Notes: generated from the letters alone by a model not told the origin. Counted from the stretch's first letter, positions 21,471 to 31,689 are shown. The stretch is DNA of 39,875 nt from Anaerolineae bacterium (GCA_015486235.1 WFSD01000163.1:1-39875); one strand, 5' to 3'. Numbers and translations: made by a program.

Positions 21471-21597
21471 TCACCGCAGAGCCCGCATAGCAAATCAACG
21501 AACGAATCAGCAAAACGAATTGCTCCGGGAGAATCTTATCGTTGATTCGCTTGATCGCCCATTCGCTGGTTTTGAACCTCCTCGTTCTCGGCGGTGA
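21471..21597. repeat. Nested palindromic element copy 1 (octamer arms)
   Basis: TCACCGCAGAGCCC...CTCGGCGGTGA shell; RCGAATCA-type arms and inverse TGATTCGC arms. Confidence 0.9.
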
Positions 21598-21625
21598 ACC
21601 CTTTCAATCAGATCTGCCCCAGAAA

Positions 21626-22018
21626 TTACCGCTTGGTGTACTGTGGCGCCTTGCGGGCCCGCTTGAGACCGTATTTCTTCCGCTCTTTCATGCGGGCATC
21701 CCTTGTGAGGAAGCCACCTGCCCGCATCACAGACCGCAGATCCTCGTCCATTTCGACGAGGGCTCTGGCAAACCCATGAGCAACAGCACCTGCCTGGCCG
21801 GTGATACCACCCCCCTTGACCACCACAGTTACGTTGAGCTTGTCCTCCATGCCAGCGGCTTTCAGAGGAGCCATCACGGTGATCAGGTCCACCGAACGGG
21901 TAAAATACTCCTCCACCGGCTTGTTGTTGACCACGATTCTCCCCTCGCCGGGGTACAGCCTCACCTGAGCGTTAGCGGTCTTCCGCCTGCCAACCGCATA
22001 GTTGTAACGAACTGACAT
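21626..22018 (-). CDS. rpsI: 30S ribosomal protein S9
   Basis: GRRKTA, GGGITGQAGA and LTRDARMKERKKYGLKRARKAPQYTKR. Confidence 0.98.
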   Translation of the reverse strand: MSVRYNYAVGRRKTANAQVRLYPGEGRIVVNNKPVEEYFTRSVDLITVMAPLKAAGMEDKLNVTVVVKGGGITGQAGAVAHGFARALVEMDEDLRSVMRAGGFLTRDARMKERKKYGLKRARKAPQYTKR

Positions 22019-22030
22019 CAACTCCTCCCT

Positions 22031-22459
22031 TTATAAGTCCAAAGGTTCAGGCCTCTGCGCTTTATGCGGATGATCCGGCCCCGCATATACTTTCAGCTTC
22101 TTCGACATCTCCCGCCCGAGGCGATTCTTGGGCAACATTCCCCGCACGGCGAACTCCACGGCCCGCTCCGGGTGCCTCTGCAGCAGGTCCCGAAGGCTGA
22201 CCGCCTTGAGACCGCCCGGATAGCCGGAATGCCTGTAGTAGATTTTCTGCGTAAGCTTTCTGCCCGTCACGTGAATCTTCTCCGCGTTTACGACGATCAC
22301 ATAATCCCCGGTGTCCACATGTGGGGAGAAAATCGGTTTGTTCTTGCCGCGCAAAATCCTGGCGATCTCGCTGGCAAGGCGGCCAAGCGTCTTCCCCTGA
22401 GCATCCACCACGTACCACTTACGCTTTATGTCCCCCGGCTTAGGTGTGTATGTACGCAC
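22031..22459 (-). CDS. rplM: 50S ribosomal protein L13
   Basis: [34 protein letters not shown] and GMLPKN. Confidence 0.98.
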
Positions 22460-23252
22460 TCCTATTTCCCTCCTTCAACCCCGGAACCGTAAACTCCAGC
22501 TCCGGCGGATATTCAACTCTCACAAGGCAAAGCCCCCGGGACGGCGCTGGTGGCCCCGAGCGAGAAATATCCGGCCTGTCCAGCAGTTCAGCCATTTCCT
22601 CCGGAGCCCGCATGCCCTGCCCGACTTCCAGCATCGTCCCTACCAGACGACGCACCATCTTTCGTAGAAAAGCGTTCGCCGTTATCCAGAACTCCACTTC
22701 GTTTCCCCGAGTCGCCCATTCCGCCCGATGGATGGTGCGGATTCGATTCTCTCCCTGGGGCGGGTGCCCGAACCCACCGAAATCATGGGTACCCTGGATC
22801 GCCTCTGCCGCCCTCGACATCTTGTCCACATCCAGCGGATGCTCAAGATAAGCCGAGAATCTCCTGCGCAACGGCGACCGCCACGGAGCGTTCCAAATGC
22901 GATAGACGTAAGTCCTGCTCACGGCGCTGAACCGTGGGTGAAACCCTTCCGGTGCCTCTGCCAAAGCCAAAACAGATATGTCCTTCGGAAGAATCGCATT
23001 CAATGCCCGCTGCAGCCTTTGGCCATCCTCTTTCCACCTCAATGGGAAGGAGATTACCTGACCACAGGCATGGACCCCGGCATCGGTACGTCCTGCCCCA
23101 ACCACCCTGACATGACTCCCTGCCAGCCTGGTCAAAGCCGCTTCCAGCGCGCCCTGCACCGTAGGCACATCCGCCTGCACCTGGAATCCAAAGTACTCGG
23201 TGCCGTCATATTCCACTACCGCCCGCCACATAGCGGGCCCTGCAACACCCAT
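22440..23252 (-). CDS. truA: tRNA pseudouridine(38-40) synthase
   Basis: [23 protein letters not shown] and FLRKMVR; start uncertain (23255, 23252 or 23231). Confidence 0.95.
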
Positions 23253-23632
23253 CACTCCTCGGACACCAACTCGAGCAAGACCATTTCCGCCGCATCCCCT
23301 TGCCTGCGGCCCACTTTCACGATCCTGGTGTAACCGCCAGGCCTGGAGATGTAGCGTGGAGCGATCTCGCCAAACAGTTTCTTGACGGCCGCTTTGTTCC
23401 CAAGGCGGGAGTACGCCAGCCTTCTGGCGTGAACGCCATAGGCATCTCCCTTGCTCAAACTGCGCTTCGCAAGAGTAATCAGCTTCTCGGCATTTCCACG
23501 AACCGCTTTGGCCTTGGCTTCTGTAGTATTTATCCTCTCATGTTCGAAAAGCTGGATAATCAAATTCCGGAACAGCGACTTGCGATGTCCCATGTCCCGA
23601 TTCAGCTTCCTACTGGCTATACGATGCCTCAC
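23252..23632 (-). CDS. rplQ: 50S ribosomal protein L17
   Basis: (M)RHRIASRKLNR, TTEAKAK and RPGGYTRI; GTG start with GGAGG RBS. Confidence 0.97.
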   Translation of the reverse strand: MRHRIASRKLNRDMGHRKSLFRNLIIQLFEHERINTTEAKAKAVRGNAEKLITLAKRSLSKGDAYGVHARRLAYSRLGNKAAVKKLFGEIAPRYISRPGGYTRIVKVGRRQGDAAEMVLLELVSEE

Positions 23633-23807
23633 CTTACAAACCTCCGATAACATCTCAAGGGTCTGAGAGCAGATAGTGGAGAACCGCCACAAAGGGCCAG
23701 TCCCTCATCGCCTCTATTCTCCCGTTCCATCTCCATGTACCCCTTTGTGAGCACCATCCGCTAACCGGGTCTCGTCCTTCTGGGGCTCTGCAAAAGTCCA
23801 GAACGGA

Positions 23808-29895: not shown

Positions 29896-30351
29896 TCAGG
29901 GCAACGGCAGTTTTTCTACTGATCCGCCTGCAGCGATGATTTTCTCTTTGGCACTCCTGGAAAAACGATGGGCTTTCACCGTGAGTGGATGGATCAGATC
30001 GCCGTTTCCAAGGATTACCACGGGGTACTTCGTGGACTTGATCACACCACGCTCTGCCAGCGCCTCCGGCGTGACTTCGCTTTCAGGTGGGAACAGTTCC
30101 GCCAGTCTTCCCAGGTTCACCTCGGCATATTCCACACGCCAGATATTGGTAAAGCCCCGCCTGAAAGGCAGCCTGCGGACGAAAGGCAACTGTCCGCCCT
30201 CGAAGTAAGGACGCACGCCGCCACCGCTTCGGGCATTCTGGCCTTTGGTGCCCCTGCCAGCAGTCTTCCCCTTTCCTGCAGAGATACCGCGGCCGACCCT
30301 GCTCTTCCGCCGCTTGCTGCCGGGAGCGGGTCTCAGGTCATGCAATTTCAT
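29896..30351 (-). CDS. rplO: 50S ribosomal protein L15
   Basis: [19 protein letters not shown] and FEGGQLP. Confidence 0.97.
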
Positions 30352-30356
30352 AGCAC

Positions 30357-30554
30357 TCACCCCTCCCCAGAAACCTCTTCGACCTGCAACAGGTGGGCAA
30401 CCTTGTTCACCATCCCCCTTATCACAGGCGTATCTTTCTTCACCACTTCATCTTGCAGGTGCCTCAGCCCGAGGGCCCGCACCGTGGCTTTCTGATCCTT
30501 CTTCCGTCCGATGGGACTCTTCACCAGTTTTATTCGAAGGAACTTCTCAACCAT
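30357..30554 (-). CDS. rpmD: 50S ribosomal protein L30
   Basis: LVKSPIG, ALGLR and [11 protein letters not shown]. Confidence 0.96.
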
Positions 30555-31089
30555 TTCGCCCCTTCCTCCAGAAAGACGGCGTGACCATCTCCACAGGCTT
30601 GCCGCGGCGTTTTGCCTCGACTTCCATATCCTTCAACTGCCCCAGCGCCTTCATAGTGGCCTGAACCACATTGAGCACGTTGGAACTGCCCAGTGACTTG
30701 GTCAGCACGTCCTTAGCGCCGGCAGCTTCCAGGACAGCGCGGACTCCGCCACCAGCGATAACGCCGGTACCAGGAGAGGCGGGCTTCAGCAACACCTTAG
30801 CCGCCCCGAAGTCGGCGATGACTGGGTGAGGGATAGTTGTGCCCAGAAGGTTGACTTTTTTCATGTTTCTGCGGGCTTGCTCGCTTCCTTTCCGAATTGC
30901 CTCGGGCACCTCACCGGCCTTTCCAATCCCAACGCCCACGCTGCCGTTGTGATCGCCCACGACAACCAGGGCGCGGAAATGAAAGCGACGGCCACCCTTG
31001 AGGACTTTTGCCGTCCGGGCAATGTGAACTACCCGCTCGTCGAGTTCAGCCTGTTCCTCGAATCCAAAACTTTCCTGTTCGTTAGCCAT
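30547..31089 (-). CDS. rpsE: 30S ribosomal protein S5
   Basis: [16 protein letters not shown] and PGTGVIAGG. Confidence 0.98.
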
Positions 31090-31104
31090 CTACACTCCCT
31101 CGCC

Positions 31105-31470
31105 TCAGAAATCCAAACCGGCTTCGCGGGCCGCATCGGCCAGGGCTTTCACCCTGCCGTGAAACTTGTAGCCGCCGCGGTCGAAGACCATCTGCTTCAT
31201 CCCCAGGGACAAAGCCCGCTTCGCTACAAGCTTGCCAACCTCTTTAGCCTGCTCTGTTTTCTTCTTCCCTTCCATTGCCCCTCTGATTTCAGGATCAAGC
31301 GTGGATGCAGACACCAGAGTCTTCCCCTCCACGTCATCGATTACCTGAGCATAAATGTGCCTCGAGCTTCGAAACACATTCAGACGTGGGCGCTCAGGGG
31401 TACCGAACACCCGCTTGCGCACACGAAGATGCCGCTTCCTGCGGGCTTCACTTCGGCTCGATCGAGCCAT
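31105..31470 (-). CDS. rplR: 50S ribosomal protein L18
   Basis: [13 protein letters not shown] and [24 protein letters not shown] with GGAGG RBS. Confidence 0.97.
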
Positions 31471-31543
31471 CGCGCTTCCACCTCCATGAAAATTTCCCAG
31501 GCCAAACCCCCTGGTTAGCCTAAACACCCCTGAAAAGCATTCT

Positions 31544-31689
31544 TCACCGCAGAGCCCCTCAAAAAGCCGTTAGCAGTTAGCAGTTAGCAGTTAGCAGTCA
31601 GCCGTAAGCCGATAGCAACAGGATTTTCGCAAAAGCTAACGGCTGCCGGCTAACGGCTATCGGCTCTCTCCCCGCGTACTCCGCGGTGA
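31544..31689. repeat. Nested palindromic element copy 5 (heptamer arms), between rplF and rplR
   Basis: Same TCACCGCAGAGCCC...CTCCGCGGTGA shell, but inner arms are seven AGCMGTT-like units (31565-31613) and four inverse units (31635-31665). Confidence 0.9.

What the first reader, a model, noticed from the sequence alone, without database searches (positions are those of the whole stretch)
21471..31689. Family of nested palindromic elements inside the ribosomal superoperon
Seen: five 116-146-bp intergenic elements (21471-21597 after rpsI; 25629-25751 rpsK/rpsD; 26274-26389 rpsM/rpsK; 26980-27112 map/rpmJ; 31544-31689 rplF/rplR). All start TCACCGCAGAG and end CTCnGCGGTGA, lie in the same orientation, carry no convincing ORF and show no obvious target-site duplication. 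The outer shell is roughly 9-nt periodic (CGCnGAGnn) and encloses periodic inverted arms around a short variable loop, so each would form a long hairpin in a highly expressed, normally compact mRNA. Recalled and needing verification: similar 9-mer arms flank GxxExxY (PD-(D/E)XK-like) genes, and 7/8-mer arms flank four-helix-bundle (23S rRNA IVP/bAvd-like) genes. Inference: these are cargo-less members of a poorly described mobile system mobilised in trans, or domesticated RNA processing/stability cassettes.
Basis: partly seen in the sequence, partly recalled or inferred. Interest (0 to 1): 0.85.

Follow-up and report, generated by a model that had tools for sequence, protein, structure and literature searches.

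The report
Gene-less nested hairpin elements in operons
Five long hairpin-forming inserts between ribosomal-protein genes are gene-less copies of two little-known selfish gene cassettes; they come and go between closely related bacteria, and their end sequences recur in many phyla.

Summary
All five elements lie at the stated coordinates, share the ends TCACCGCAGAG / CTCnGCGGTGA, lie in one orientation and fold as long hairpins. They are not a local oddity. The draft genome holds 94 related loci, 36 of them strong. The outer shell matches the inverted arms that bracket GxxExxY (PDDEXK_3 nuclease) genes in a congener and in class relatives. Cargo-less shells with the same ends turned up in at least 120 stretches from many phyla. 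The inner 7/8-nt periodic arms are of the kind that brackets 23S_rRNA_IVP four-helix-bundle genes, and the B-type arms match those around that gene in a congener. Orthologous spacers in congeners are empty, differently filled or replaced, so turnover is fast. Among strong copies lying between co-directional genes, 24 of 27 share one orientation relative to transcription, and G·U wobble favours the mRNA strand.

Against a simple transposon reading:
- no target duplication was found;
- copies are diverged, with no near-identical donor;
- there is no significant covariation;
- no RNA data were available.

Best reading: these are gene-less derivatives of nested selfish cassettes, co-transcribed as hairpins. 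Mobilisation by the nuclease is inferred, not shown.

The parts
21471..21597 (-). Element 1. A-type (8-nt periodic inner arms) inside the TCACCGCnGAG shell. Lies between the rpsI stop and a terminator-like hairpin at the operon end.
   Evidence: Sequence; hairpin -47.6 kcal/mol, z -2.83; nhmmer 129 bits; S9 gene confirmed.
25607..25751 (-). Element 2. A-type hairpin at 25629-25751 plus the left flank motif ATAACTGTTCAGG at 25607-25619. Lies between rpsK and rpsD.
   Evidence: (-55.1 kcal/mol, z -4.51). The spacer is 16-17 bp in congeners G001 and G003 (empty). G002 holds a shell with a different interior here.
26231..26389 (-). Element 3. A-type hairpin at 26274-26389 plus GTAACCGTTCAGC at 26231-26243. 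Lies between rpsM and rpsK.
   Evidence: Absent in G001 and G003. Present in G002, but only 54% identical there, while rpsK is 93% and rpsM 95% identical.
26933..27149 (-). Element 4. Inserted block holding the A-type hairpin at 26980-27112 plus 47 nt of left flank and 37 nt of right flank (the right flank ends CCTGAACGC). Lies between map and rpmJ.
   Evidence: -70.2 kcal/mol, z -6.35. The site is empty in G002 (about 95% identical relative), G001 and G003. A contig of a second metagenome run joins 26932 to 27150.
31544..31689 (-). Element 5. B-type (7-nt periodic GTTAGCA / GCTAACG arms) inside the shell. Lies between rplF and rplR.
   Evidence: -71.2 kcal/mol, z -5.72. Absent in G001. G002 reads N here, so it could not be compared.
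17145..17276 (-). Sixth family member, outside the finding's range. B-type inner arms with a left shell end TCACCGCAAAG and a decayed right end. It abuts the amidohydrolase gene.
   Evidence: nhmmer 75 bits; inverted repeat I1; sequence; neighbouring gene.
9214..9300 (.). G-rich 7-nt periodic hairpin (GGGATTA / GGGGACA type). Its arms are of the same kind that bracket this genome's own 23S_rRNA_IVP gene on contig C124. No shell.
   Evidence: Inverted repeat I3, 24 nt arms, 88% complementary; sequence; C124 arms.

Best explanation
The five elements are gene-less, composite members of two nested families of selfish 'hairpin-bracketed cassettes'.

Outer layer: a pair of inverted arms with conserved ends (TCACCGCnGAG ... 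CTCnGCGGTGA) followed by degenerate 9-nt CGCnGAG units. In relatives these arms enclose a small PD-(D/E)XK nuclease gene (GxxExxY / PDDEXK_3).

Inner layer: a pair of 7- or 8-nt periodic inverted arms. In relatives these enclose a four-helix-bundle gene (23S_rRNA_IVP, Avd-like).

In the window both genes are gone and only the nested arms remain, so each copy is a long hairpin.

Shown here:
- The shell and the arms are homologous to those around the cargo genes.
- The family is dispersed genome-wide.
- Copies are gained, lost or swapped at orthologous spacers between congeners.
- Orientation relative to transcription is strongly biased.

Inferred:
(a) Copies spread or exchange interiors through the conserved shell ends. 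This would happen either by the PDDEXK_3 nuclease acting in trans, much as a RAYT acts on REPINs, or by recombination between shells.
(b) Because they lie in the sense orientation inside operons, they are transcribed into mRNA hairpins. RNase III probably cuts these, as it cuts the hairpin-bounded intervening sequences of 23S rRNA that carry the same gene family. Highly expressed ribosomal-protein operons would tolerate this.
For: Family size: nhmmer profiles of the two interior types give 94 merged loci at E<=1e-3 (41 A, 53 B), 36 of them at 60 bits or more.

Shell matches GxxExxY arms: of 28 GxxExxY loci from class relatives, 26 share at least one 9-mer between the upstream flank and the reverse complement of the downstream flank. 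The best period is 9 in 23 of 56 flanks, 8 in 13 and 10 in 8. At least 5 of the 28 carry TCACCGCnGAG-type ends, including the congener G002 (L021, L022, L023, L029, L036).

Inner arms match IVP arms: of 24 IVP loci, the best period is 7 in 39 of 48 flanks and 8 in 6. None of 94 control windows reaches 80% self-match. B-type arms bracket the IVP gene in G001 (L058) and G017 (L056).

My rough chance estimate is about 8. Of the 80 returned, 64 show further CGCnGAG units on both sides. Six IMG/VR contigs also match.

Turnover: site 4 is empty in G002, G001 and G003, and in a contig of a second run. Sites 2, 3 and 5 are empty in G001, and sites 2 and 3 in G003. Further copies are absent or replaced on contigs C361 and C164. 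At site 2, G002 has the shell with a different interior.

Orientation: 24 of 27 strong copies between co-directional genes share one orientation (p 5e-5). A control repeat gives 16:9. The cargo genes show the same rule: GxxExxY is co-directional with both neighbours in 19 of 28 loci and opposite to both in 1; IVP in 13 of 24 and 1.

RNA strand: the mRNA-sense strand folds better in 20 of 24 copies, with mean MFE -58.4 against -52.1 kcal/mol. In the A-type alignment there are 78 G·U cells against 12 A·C cells (my count).

Nuclease: the catalytic residues E41, D81, E91 and K93 are invariant in 20 sequences, and the AF2 model has pLDDT 92 with a PD-(D/E)XK fold.

Precedent: IVSs with an S23p ORF and a 28-bp terminal stem are cut by RNase III in vitro (PMC4990558, passages read).
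Against: - No target-site duplication was found, and insertion boundaries are fuzzy. Several 'empty' sites hold unrelated DNA instead, which is replacement rather than clean insertion.
- Copies are diverged. Nearest-neighbour identity is 0.62-0.85, apart from two groups (C177/C319 at 0.97; C65, C185 and C439 at 0.98-1.0) that include contig-end copies. The recently gained site-4 copy has no donor closer than 0.78.
One copy has an internal TGA and lacks its N-terminus, and the other is a fragment.
- Covariation is not above shuffles: 3 pairs against 1.8, with 115 of 500 shuffles as high.
- Chimeric left and right arms fold as well as native pairs. The hairpins therefore look inherited, not actively maintained by compensation.
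- The link between motif count and GxxExxY gene count across 41 related genomes is moderate (rho 0.49; kin are not independent). Some genomes with no gene match have 40-60 motif hits.
- The orientation bias could come from replication-coupled insertion instead. This cannot be tested on short contigs.
- Gene orientations come from my own crude ORF caller.
- There are no RNA data.
Confidence: 0.6

Rival explanations
1. Domesticated cis-acting RNA elements. The hairpins are kept because they serve the operon as processing sites or 3'-exonuclease barriers that set the relative levels of neighbouring cistrons, and they no longer move.
For: Orientation bias of 24 of 27. The mRNA-sense strand is more stable in 20 of 24 copies, with a G·U excess. 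Five of 11 exact-shell copies lie in the ribosomal-protein operon. No intact GxxExxY gene is present in this assembly. Copies are old and diverged.
Against: The copies are absent from the same spacers in congeners G001 and G003, and site 4 is also empty in the 95%-identical G002. The one orthologous copy shared with G002 is only 54% identical, against 93-95% for the flanking genes. Covariation is not significant and chimeric arms fold equally well. No shell pair was seen in the rpsM-rpsD region of the 8 other class relatives whose loci were scanned (L005-L012); the hits in L012 were read and lie in coding sequence.
Confidence: 0.15
2. No dedicated mobility. The elements spread and change through ordinary recombination: homologous exchange of whole spacers between strains, and ectopic gene conversion between dispersed shells. 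The shell is then only a shared recombination substrate.
For: Spacers are replaced by unrelated DNA rather than cleanly filled or emptied. The same site carries the same shell with different interiors in G000 and G002. No target duplication was found. The recently gained copy has no near-identical donor.
Against: Shell ends are conserved to the base across many phyla and in predicted viral contigs, which passive recombination within a lineage does not explain. The orientation bias of 24 of 27 needs selection or a directional mechanism. The arms are physically tied to a nuclease gene with intact catalytic residues.
Confidence: 0.15
3. DNA-level protein-binding arrays. The tandem 7-9-nt units are binding sites for an abundant DNA-binding or nucleoid protein, as was proposed for paired tandem-repeat sites in Geobacter metallireducens.
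For: Each arm is a regular tandem array. The Geobacter genome paper describes paired sites on opposite strands built from octanucleotide, heptanucleotide or TCTCCGTS[Y] repeats and reads them as sites for unidentified global regulators or IHF/HU (PMC2700814, passages read).
Against: A DNA-binding array has no reason to favour the mRNA strand in wobble pairing or to keep one orientation relative to transcription. Unit sequences differ widely between copies and genomes while the architecture stays. Copies are dispensable at orthologous sites.
Confidence: 0.07

Closest known systems
REPIN / RAYT systems (REP doublets mobilised by a REP-associated tyrosine transposase)
   Same: Short non-coding palindromic elements are dispersed in extragenic space. 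A single-copy or low-copy nuclease-type gene is itself bracketed by inverted copies of the same repeat. Non-autonomous copies far outnumber the gene. (PMC3337134 and PMC3116915: search listing and start of abstracts only.)
   Different: The associated gene is a PD-(D/E)XK (PDDEXK_3) protein, not an HUH/Y1 transposase. The arms are 30-60 nt arrays of 9-nt units, not 20-40 nt REPs with a GTAG or CGTC tag. The elements are nested with a second family. The genome's only Y1_Tnp gene (contig C225) is flanked by its own, different REP-like repeats.
Intervening sequences (IVS) of 23S rRNA carrying an S23p ORF (Leptospira, Coxiella)
   Same: A gene of the same Pfam family (23S_rRNA_IVP) is enclosed by terminal inverted repeats that form a long stem. 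The element is inserted in the sense orientation in a very highly expressed transcript and is regarded as selfish. RNase III cuts the stem in vitro (PMC4990558, abstract and passages).
   Different: Here the host transcript is ribosomal-protein mRNA, not 23S rRNA. The ORF is missing. The arms are 7/8-nt periodic and sit inside a second, unrelated shell. RNase III cutting was not tested.
Transcribed MITEs such as Correia (Neisseria) and ERIC (enterobacteria)
   Same: Dispersed elements of 100-250 bp with terminal inverted repeats. They are co-transcribed with neighbouring genes, fold into RNA hairpins and have orientation-dependent effects. (Recalled; no call.)
   Different: Those have defined target duplications and no periodic arms. 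No cargo-bearing relatives with a PD-(D/E)XK or four-helix-bundle gene are known to me. No target duplication was found here.
Paired tandem-repeat 'global regulator binding sites' annotated in Geobacter metallireducens
   Same: Inverted pairs of sites on opposite strands, each made of 3-5 tandem 7-, 8- or 8/9-nt units, at a variable distance, in dozens of intergenic places. Some sites belong to two classes at once (PMC2700814, passages). The class-2 unit TCTCCGTS[Y] is the reverse complement of the CACGGAGA-type units seen around GxxExxY genes here.
   Different: That paper reads them as DNA sites for IHF/HU-like regulators. In the passages I read it does not link them to GxxExxY or IVP genes. 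Its alignments are in supplements I could not open.
Integron attC sites and gene cassettes
   Same: Small promoter-less genes are associated with imperfect palindromes. The ends are conserved while the interior varies. Conserved mismatches make the two strands unequal.
   Different: An attC is a complete hairpin downstream of each cassette, with RYYYAAC / GTTRRRY cores, in arrays next to intI. Here the two arms lie on either side of the gene, the ends are TCACCGC / GCGGTGA, and copies are scattered singly within operons.

Membership tests
MITE (miniature inverted-repeat transposable element) | Small, non-coding, with terminal inverted repeats | tested here: met
   116-146 bp with 11-nt conserved inverted ends and no room for a gene.
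MITE (miniature inverted-repeat transposable element) | Many dispersed copies in one genome | tested here: met
   94 loci at E<=1e-3, 36 of them at 60 bits or more, on many contigs.
MITE (miniature inverted-repeat transposable element) | Target-site duplication flanking each copy | tested here: not met
   No direct repeat appears at the boundaries of five filled-versus-empty comparisons. The boundaries are fuzzy and some sites are replaced by unrelated DNA.
MITE (miniature inverted-repeat transposable element) | Insertion polymorphism between close relatives | tested here: met
   Site 4 is empty in G002, G001 and G003, and in a contig of run X2. Sites 2, 3 and 5 are empty in G001, and sites 2 and 3 in G003. 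The copies at C361:2160-2332 and C164:5389-5540 are absent in G002.
MITE (miniature inverted-repeat transposable element) | An autonomous partner with the same ends that encodes a transposase | tested here: inconclusive
   GxxExxY genes carry the same ends in relatives, but this protein family has no shown transposase activity and is listed as 'Unknown' in PMC3424549. No intact copy is present in this assembly.
REPIN / RAYT | A Y1 (HUH) transposase gene flanked by the same repeat | tested here: not met
   The one Y1_Tnp gene (C225:2894-3235) is flanked by different REP-like repeats, and no A, B or shell hit lies on that contig.
REPIN / RAYT | 20-40 nt REP palindromes with a conserved GTAG or CGTC tag | tested here: not met
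   The ends read TCACCGC and the arms are 30-60 nt periodic arrays. The tag definition comes from the PMC3733652 abstract start.
23S rRNA intervening sequence (IVS) | Inserted in helix 25 or 45 of the 23S rRNA gene | tested here: not met
   All five lie between protein-coding genes. Rfam finds no rRNA in the window.
23S rRNA intervening sequence (IVS) | Long terminal stem enclosing an ORF of family PF05635 | tested here: not met
   The stem is present but there is no ORF. Relatives have the ORF inside arms of the same kind.
23S rRNA intervening sequence (IVS) | Excision from the transcript by RNase III | not testable with these tools
   No RNA run holds the stretch.
Integron attC | Core sites RYYYAAC and GTTRRRY at the ends, in arrays next to an integrase | tested here: not met
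   The ends are TCACCGCnGAG / CTCnGCGGTGA. Copies are single and scattered in operon spacers. An integrase gene was not searched for.
GxxExxY / PDDEXK_3 cassette (provisional family defined here) | Inverted arms of about 9-nt units with TCACCGCnGAG-type ends | tested here: met
   Ends are identical, and one or two (A type) or more (B type elsewhere in the genome) 9-nt units follow. The same ends are seen around the gene in L021, L022, L023, L029 and L036.
GxxExxY / PDDEXK_3 cassette (provisional family defined here) | Encloses a GxxExxY gene | tested here: not met
   None of the five holds a gene. They are gene-less derivatives.

The most novel reading that the evidence does not exclude
The shell is the boundary of a widespread and so far undescribed class of mobile cassette. 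It is found from Chloroflexota-like bacteria to Planctomycetota, Acidobacteriota, Proteobacteria, Bacteroidota and an ANME-1 archaeon. Its conserved ends and 9-nt arrays would be recognised by a small structure-specific PD-(D/E)XK nuclease. Its interior would be an exchangeable slot that can hold the nuclease gene, a second cassette type (an Avd-like four-helix-bundle gene with 7/8-nt arms), or nothing. On this reading the classical ORF-bearing intervening sequences of 23S rRNA are one special case of elements that live by riding on highly expressed host transcripts and being cut out as hairpins.
Probability: 0.3. Interest if true: 0.9.

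Novelty: new variant of a known kind. Interest (0 to 1): 0.75.

Why it matters
Two very common 'hypothetical' gene families of environmental bacteria, GxxExxY/PDDEXK_3 and 23S_rRNA_IVP/Avd-like, have no known role outside DGRs and rRNA intervening sequences. 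This locus ties both to a specific DNA architecture: periodic inverted arms with conserved ends. It also ties them to gene-less copies that turn over quickly, sit in a fixed orientation inside operons, and even invade the normally compact ribosomal-protein operon. That turns an annotation blind spot into a testable system. The open questions are whether the nuclease recognises the shell, whether RNase III cuts the hairpin, and what this does to operon expression. The elements also break metagenome assemblies exactly at their positions, so recognising them has practical value for binning and annotation.

Tried and rejected
- Rfam: no family matched the window at gathering score. None matched 16500-32500 at E<=1. 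Five other loci gave only a chance miRNA hit.
- RNA evidence: no RNA holder was listed for 24900-27900, so expression, cleavage and excision could not be examined. The laid runs were DNA contigs only.
- Target-site duplication: looked for at five filled-versus-empty comparisons and not found.
- Covariation: not above shuffles in 10 A-type copies. The alignment-free chimera test found no within-copy arm co-evolution.
- An autonomous partner with the outer GTAACTGTTCAGG motif: a scan with up to 2 mismatches gave 345 hits, mostly noise inside genes, and no long pair enclosing a transposase was seen (output partly cut).
- Structure of the GxxExxY protein: Foldseek found no PDB match at E<=0.001. 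The wide search gave only generic PD-(D/E)XK folds, best Z 7.5, with the Hjc resolvase at Z 5.8. A specific resolvase-like mechanism is therefore not supported. The PDB sequence search gave nothing.
- A shell pair seemingly enclosing 550 bp in G018's ribosomal operon (L012) proved to be 1-mismatch hits in coding sequence.
- Ideas considered and dropped: integron attC, CRISPR-like arrays and terminators. Only 1 of 31 classifiable strong copies lies between convergent genes.
- Literature: searches for GxxExxY, for IVS with four-helix bundle and repeat, for the repeat strings themselves, for PDDEXK_3/PF13366 and for TIGR02436/TIGR04256/PF05635 found no paper linking these genes to periodic arms. 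Only open-access papers and bioRxiv were searched. The supplements of PMC2700814, which hold the Geobacter alignments, could not be opened. The cyanobacterial 'small dispersed repeats' paper that I recall was not listed.
- The taxon of the genome was not established.

Full report
OBSERVATION. Each begins TCACCGCAGAG and ends CTCnGCGGTGA. Pfam confirms the neighbouring genes as S9, S4, S11, S13, the M24 methionine aminopeptidase, L18 and L6, all on the minus strand. In transcript order the elements follow rplF, map, rpsM, rpsK and rpsI. As RNA, each folds into one long hairpin (-47.6 to -71.2 kcal/mol; z -2.8 to -6.4). Rfam has nothing for them, either at gathering score or at E<=1.

There are two interior types. 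Type A, with 8-nt units of the GCGAATCA kind, occurs in four elements. Type B, with 7-nt units of the GTTAGCA / GCTAACG kind, occurs at 31544. The variable base in the shell end differs between the left and right ends in the same way in all five, which gives the elements a common orientation.

GENOME-WIDE. The window is contig C163 of a 3.1-Mb draft genome of 441 contigs with 57% G+C. Both exact shell ends pair up at 11 true places, and five of these are in the window (a twelfth regex hit, on contig C8, lies in coding-like sequence). nhmmer profiles of the two interior types find 94 merged loci, 36 at 60 bits or more, including a sixth copy in the window at 17145-17276.

Six of 94 loci lie in 1.28% of the genome (Poisson p 0.0015). 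Five of 11 exact-shell copies lie there too (p 4e-7). Many copies sit at contig ends. In the run that best holds the window, contigs break inside each element and depth roughly doubles there. The true copy number is therefore probably higher.

THE UNIT IS MODULAR. Many copies carry, about 8 nt to the left of the shell, a GTAACTGTTCAGG-type motif. To the right they carry a roughly 40-nt conserved spacer followed by the inverted motif CCTGAACAGTTAC. In other copies the hairpin base is instead extended by CTGAAAAAG..CTTC and its complement. The left flank GTTCAGGGG.ATTCC equals a segment of a second, far more abundant repeat of this genome, just ahead of that repeat's own terminal GC hairpin. The shell hairpin thus occupies a slot where another element keeps a different hairpin. 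I could not explain this.

CARGO. This genome has a 23S_rRNA_IVP gene on contig C124, flanked by G-rich 7-nt inverted arms. It also has a GxxExxY pseudogene on contig C305 (one TGA, N-terminus missing), flanked by CACGG..AA 9-nt inverted arms.

Across 41 genomes of the class, GxxExxY matches occur in 25 and IVP matches in 27. I read the flanks of 28 GxxExxY and 24 IVP loci and measured them:
- IVP flanks have best period 7 in 39 of 48 and 8 in 6.
- GxxExxY flanks have best period 9 in 23 of 56, 8 in 13 and 10 in 8.
- The upstream flank and the reverse complement of the downstream flank share 9-mers in 26 of 28 GxxExxY loci and 20 of 24 IVP loci.
- None of 94 control windows shows such periodicity.

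The key point concerns the shell ends. The window's shell ends, followed by CGCnGAG units, bracket GxxExxY genes in congener G002 (L021; only the upstream arm is visible before the contig ends) and in G015, G004, G020 and G011. B-type arms bracket the IVP gene in congener G001 and in G017. The window elements are therefore shell plus inner arms with both genes missing.

DISTRIBUTION OF THE SHELL. My rough chance expectation is about 8. The 80 loci returned come from many phyla, including an ANME-1 archaeon. Of these, 64 show further CGCnGAG-type units on both sides and a few are plain coding-sequence hits. Some contain nested 7-nt hairpins (L138, L140, L148). Six IMG/VR contigs carry true copies. 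In the 41 class genomes the end motif occurs 1939 times against 180 for the reversed control. Its count correlates moderately with the number of GxxExxY matches (rho 0.49; relatives are not independent).

TURNOVER. G002 is 94-96% identical to the window over most of the operon blocks, and 90% over the block that holds element 3.
- Site 4 is empty in G002, G001 and G003. The inserted block is about 217 bp, larger than the hairpin. A contig of a second run shows the same empty junction.
- Sites 2 and 3 are empty in G001 and G003, and site 5 in G001.
- At site 2, G002 has a longer shell with a 76-nt non-palindromic interior.
- At site 3, the shared copy is only 54% identical, with 29 gap columns, while rpsK is 93% and rpsM 95% identical.
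- On other contigs, copies present in G000 are absent in G002 or G001, but the spacer often holds unrelated DNA instead.
- No target duplication was seen.
- Copies within the genome are 62-85% identical to their nearest neighbour, except two near-identical groups (C177/C319; C65, C185 and C439). The recently gained site-4 copy has no donor above 78%.

Together this points to fast replacement and interior swapping, not to a recent burst of identical copies.

ORIENTATION AND RNA. Gene calls came from my own codon-usage ORF caller. Of the 36 strong copies, 27 lie between co-directional genes. Of those 27, 24 are oriented the same way relative to transcription (p 5e-5). One lies between convergent genes, 3 between divergent genes and 5 could not be classified.

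The abundant control repeat shows no such bias (16:9, p 0.23) and prefers divergent spacers. The cargo genes obey the same rule: GxxExxY is co-directional with both neighbours in 19 of 28 loci and opposite to both in 1; IVP in 13 of 24 and 1.

The strand that is usually the mRNA sense strand folds better in 20 of 24 copies. In the A-type alignment, G·U cells outnumber A·C cells 78 to 12 (my count). The consensus hairpin is real: 94% of cells are paired, against 30-52% when partners are slid. Covariation, however, is not above shuffles, and chimeric arms fold as well as native ones. The RNA-level argument therefore rests on orientation and wobble asymmetry, not on compensatory change.

THE NUCLEASE. 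The G002 protein is PDDEXK_3 (1.3e-46). In 20 class sequences the G, E and Y of the name motif and D81, E91, K93 and Q105 are invariant. The AF2 model is confident (pLDDT 92). It resembles many PD-(D/E)XK nucleases without a close match, and no solved relative was found by sequence. The 2012 survey of the superfamily lists PDDEXK_3 as of unknown function, with multiple transfers between bacteria and archaea (PMC3424549, one table row read).

COMPARISON WITH WHAT IS KNOWN.
- In logic, the closest match is the REPIN/RAYT relationship (listings only). The genome's only Y1 transposase, however, has its own different repeats.
- For the inner layer, the closest match is the ORF-bearing IVS of 23S rRNA. 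That element has a terminal stem, is cut by RNase III in vitro and is regarded as selfish (PMC4990558).
- The Geobacter metallireducens genome paper annotated paired tandem octa- and heptanucleotide sites and TCTCCGTS[Y] sites, and read them as regulator-binding sites (PMC2700814). These look like the same architecture. In the passages I read, that paper does not link them to the two gene families.
- My searches found no paper that makes the link. Subscription journals and supplements were not searched.

VERDICT. The interpretation as gene-less members of a poorly described cassette system is supported by sequence homology and by presence/absence differences between congeners. The mobilisation mechanism and the RNA fate remain inferred. 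I rate it a new variant of a known kind (non-autonomous palindromic elements), with a real chance that the underlying cassette system is a new class.

Noticed in passing
window 4897-5060; 48 exact-motif copies elsewhere in the genome (e.g. contig C23 near 8100-8400): A second dispersed repeat of roughly 160-190 nt, much more abundant and highly conserved. Its inverted ends are of the GGGG.TTTGAAGCAAATC kind, with an internal ATAACGGTTCTGG motif and a terminal GC hairpin. It has no Rfam match, no orientation bias (16:9), and 21 of 52 classifiable copies lie in divergent (promoter-side) spacers. The window copy is diverged.
   Followed up: partly
contig C225:2894-3235 and flanks (own genome): The genome's only Y1_Tnp (RAYT-like) gene is flanked by its own REP-like repeat, with one copy upstream and two downstream. 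This repeat is unrelated to the shell elements.
   Followed up: partly
L057 (G000 C124), L054 (G003), L058 (G001), L056 (G017): The IVP gene sits at the same spacer, with the same upstream and downstream genes, in four genomes of two families. It comes in two allele-plus-arm types: G000 and G003 have G-rich arms, and G001 and G017 have B-type arms. G000 keeps half a B-type arm upstream. This suggests a recurrently used site or cassette replacement.
   Followed up: no
L013 7948-8554 (G002, between adk and secY): G002 carries an insert of about 575 bp, rich in GC hairpins, between adk and secY. The window has a 31-bp gap at this place. Part of the insert resembles window 21192-21295.
   Followed up: no
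window 21422-21459: A terminator-like GC hairpin followed by a T-rich run on the transcribed strand, just downstream of element 1. It is the likely end of the rplM-rpsI transcription unit.
   Followed up: no
window 21188-21270: Depth in two metagenome runs rises about tenfold here (bin 21000-21373: 1625 against about 130 in X1), with many loose ends. Another high-copy repeat lies between the MoCF gene and element 1.
   Followed up: no
L018 (G000 C305:10640-10780): The GxxExxY pseudogene has, between its start and its upstream arm, a fragment of the abundant repeat (GAAGCAAATC...). This is another case of elements nested in one another.
   Followed up: no
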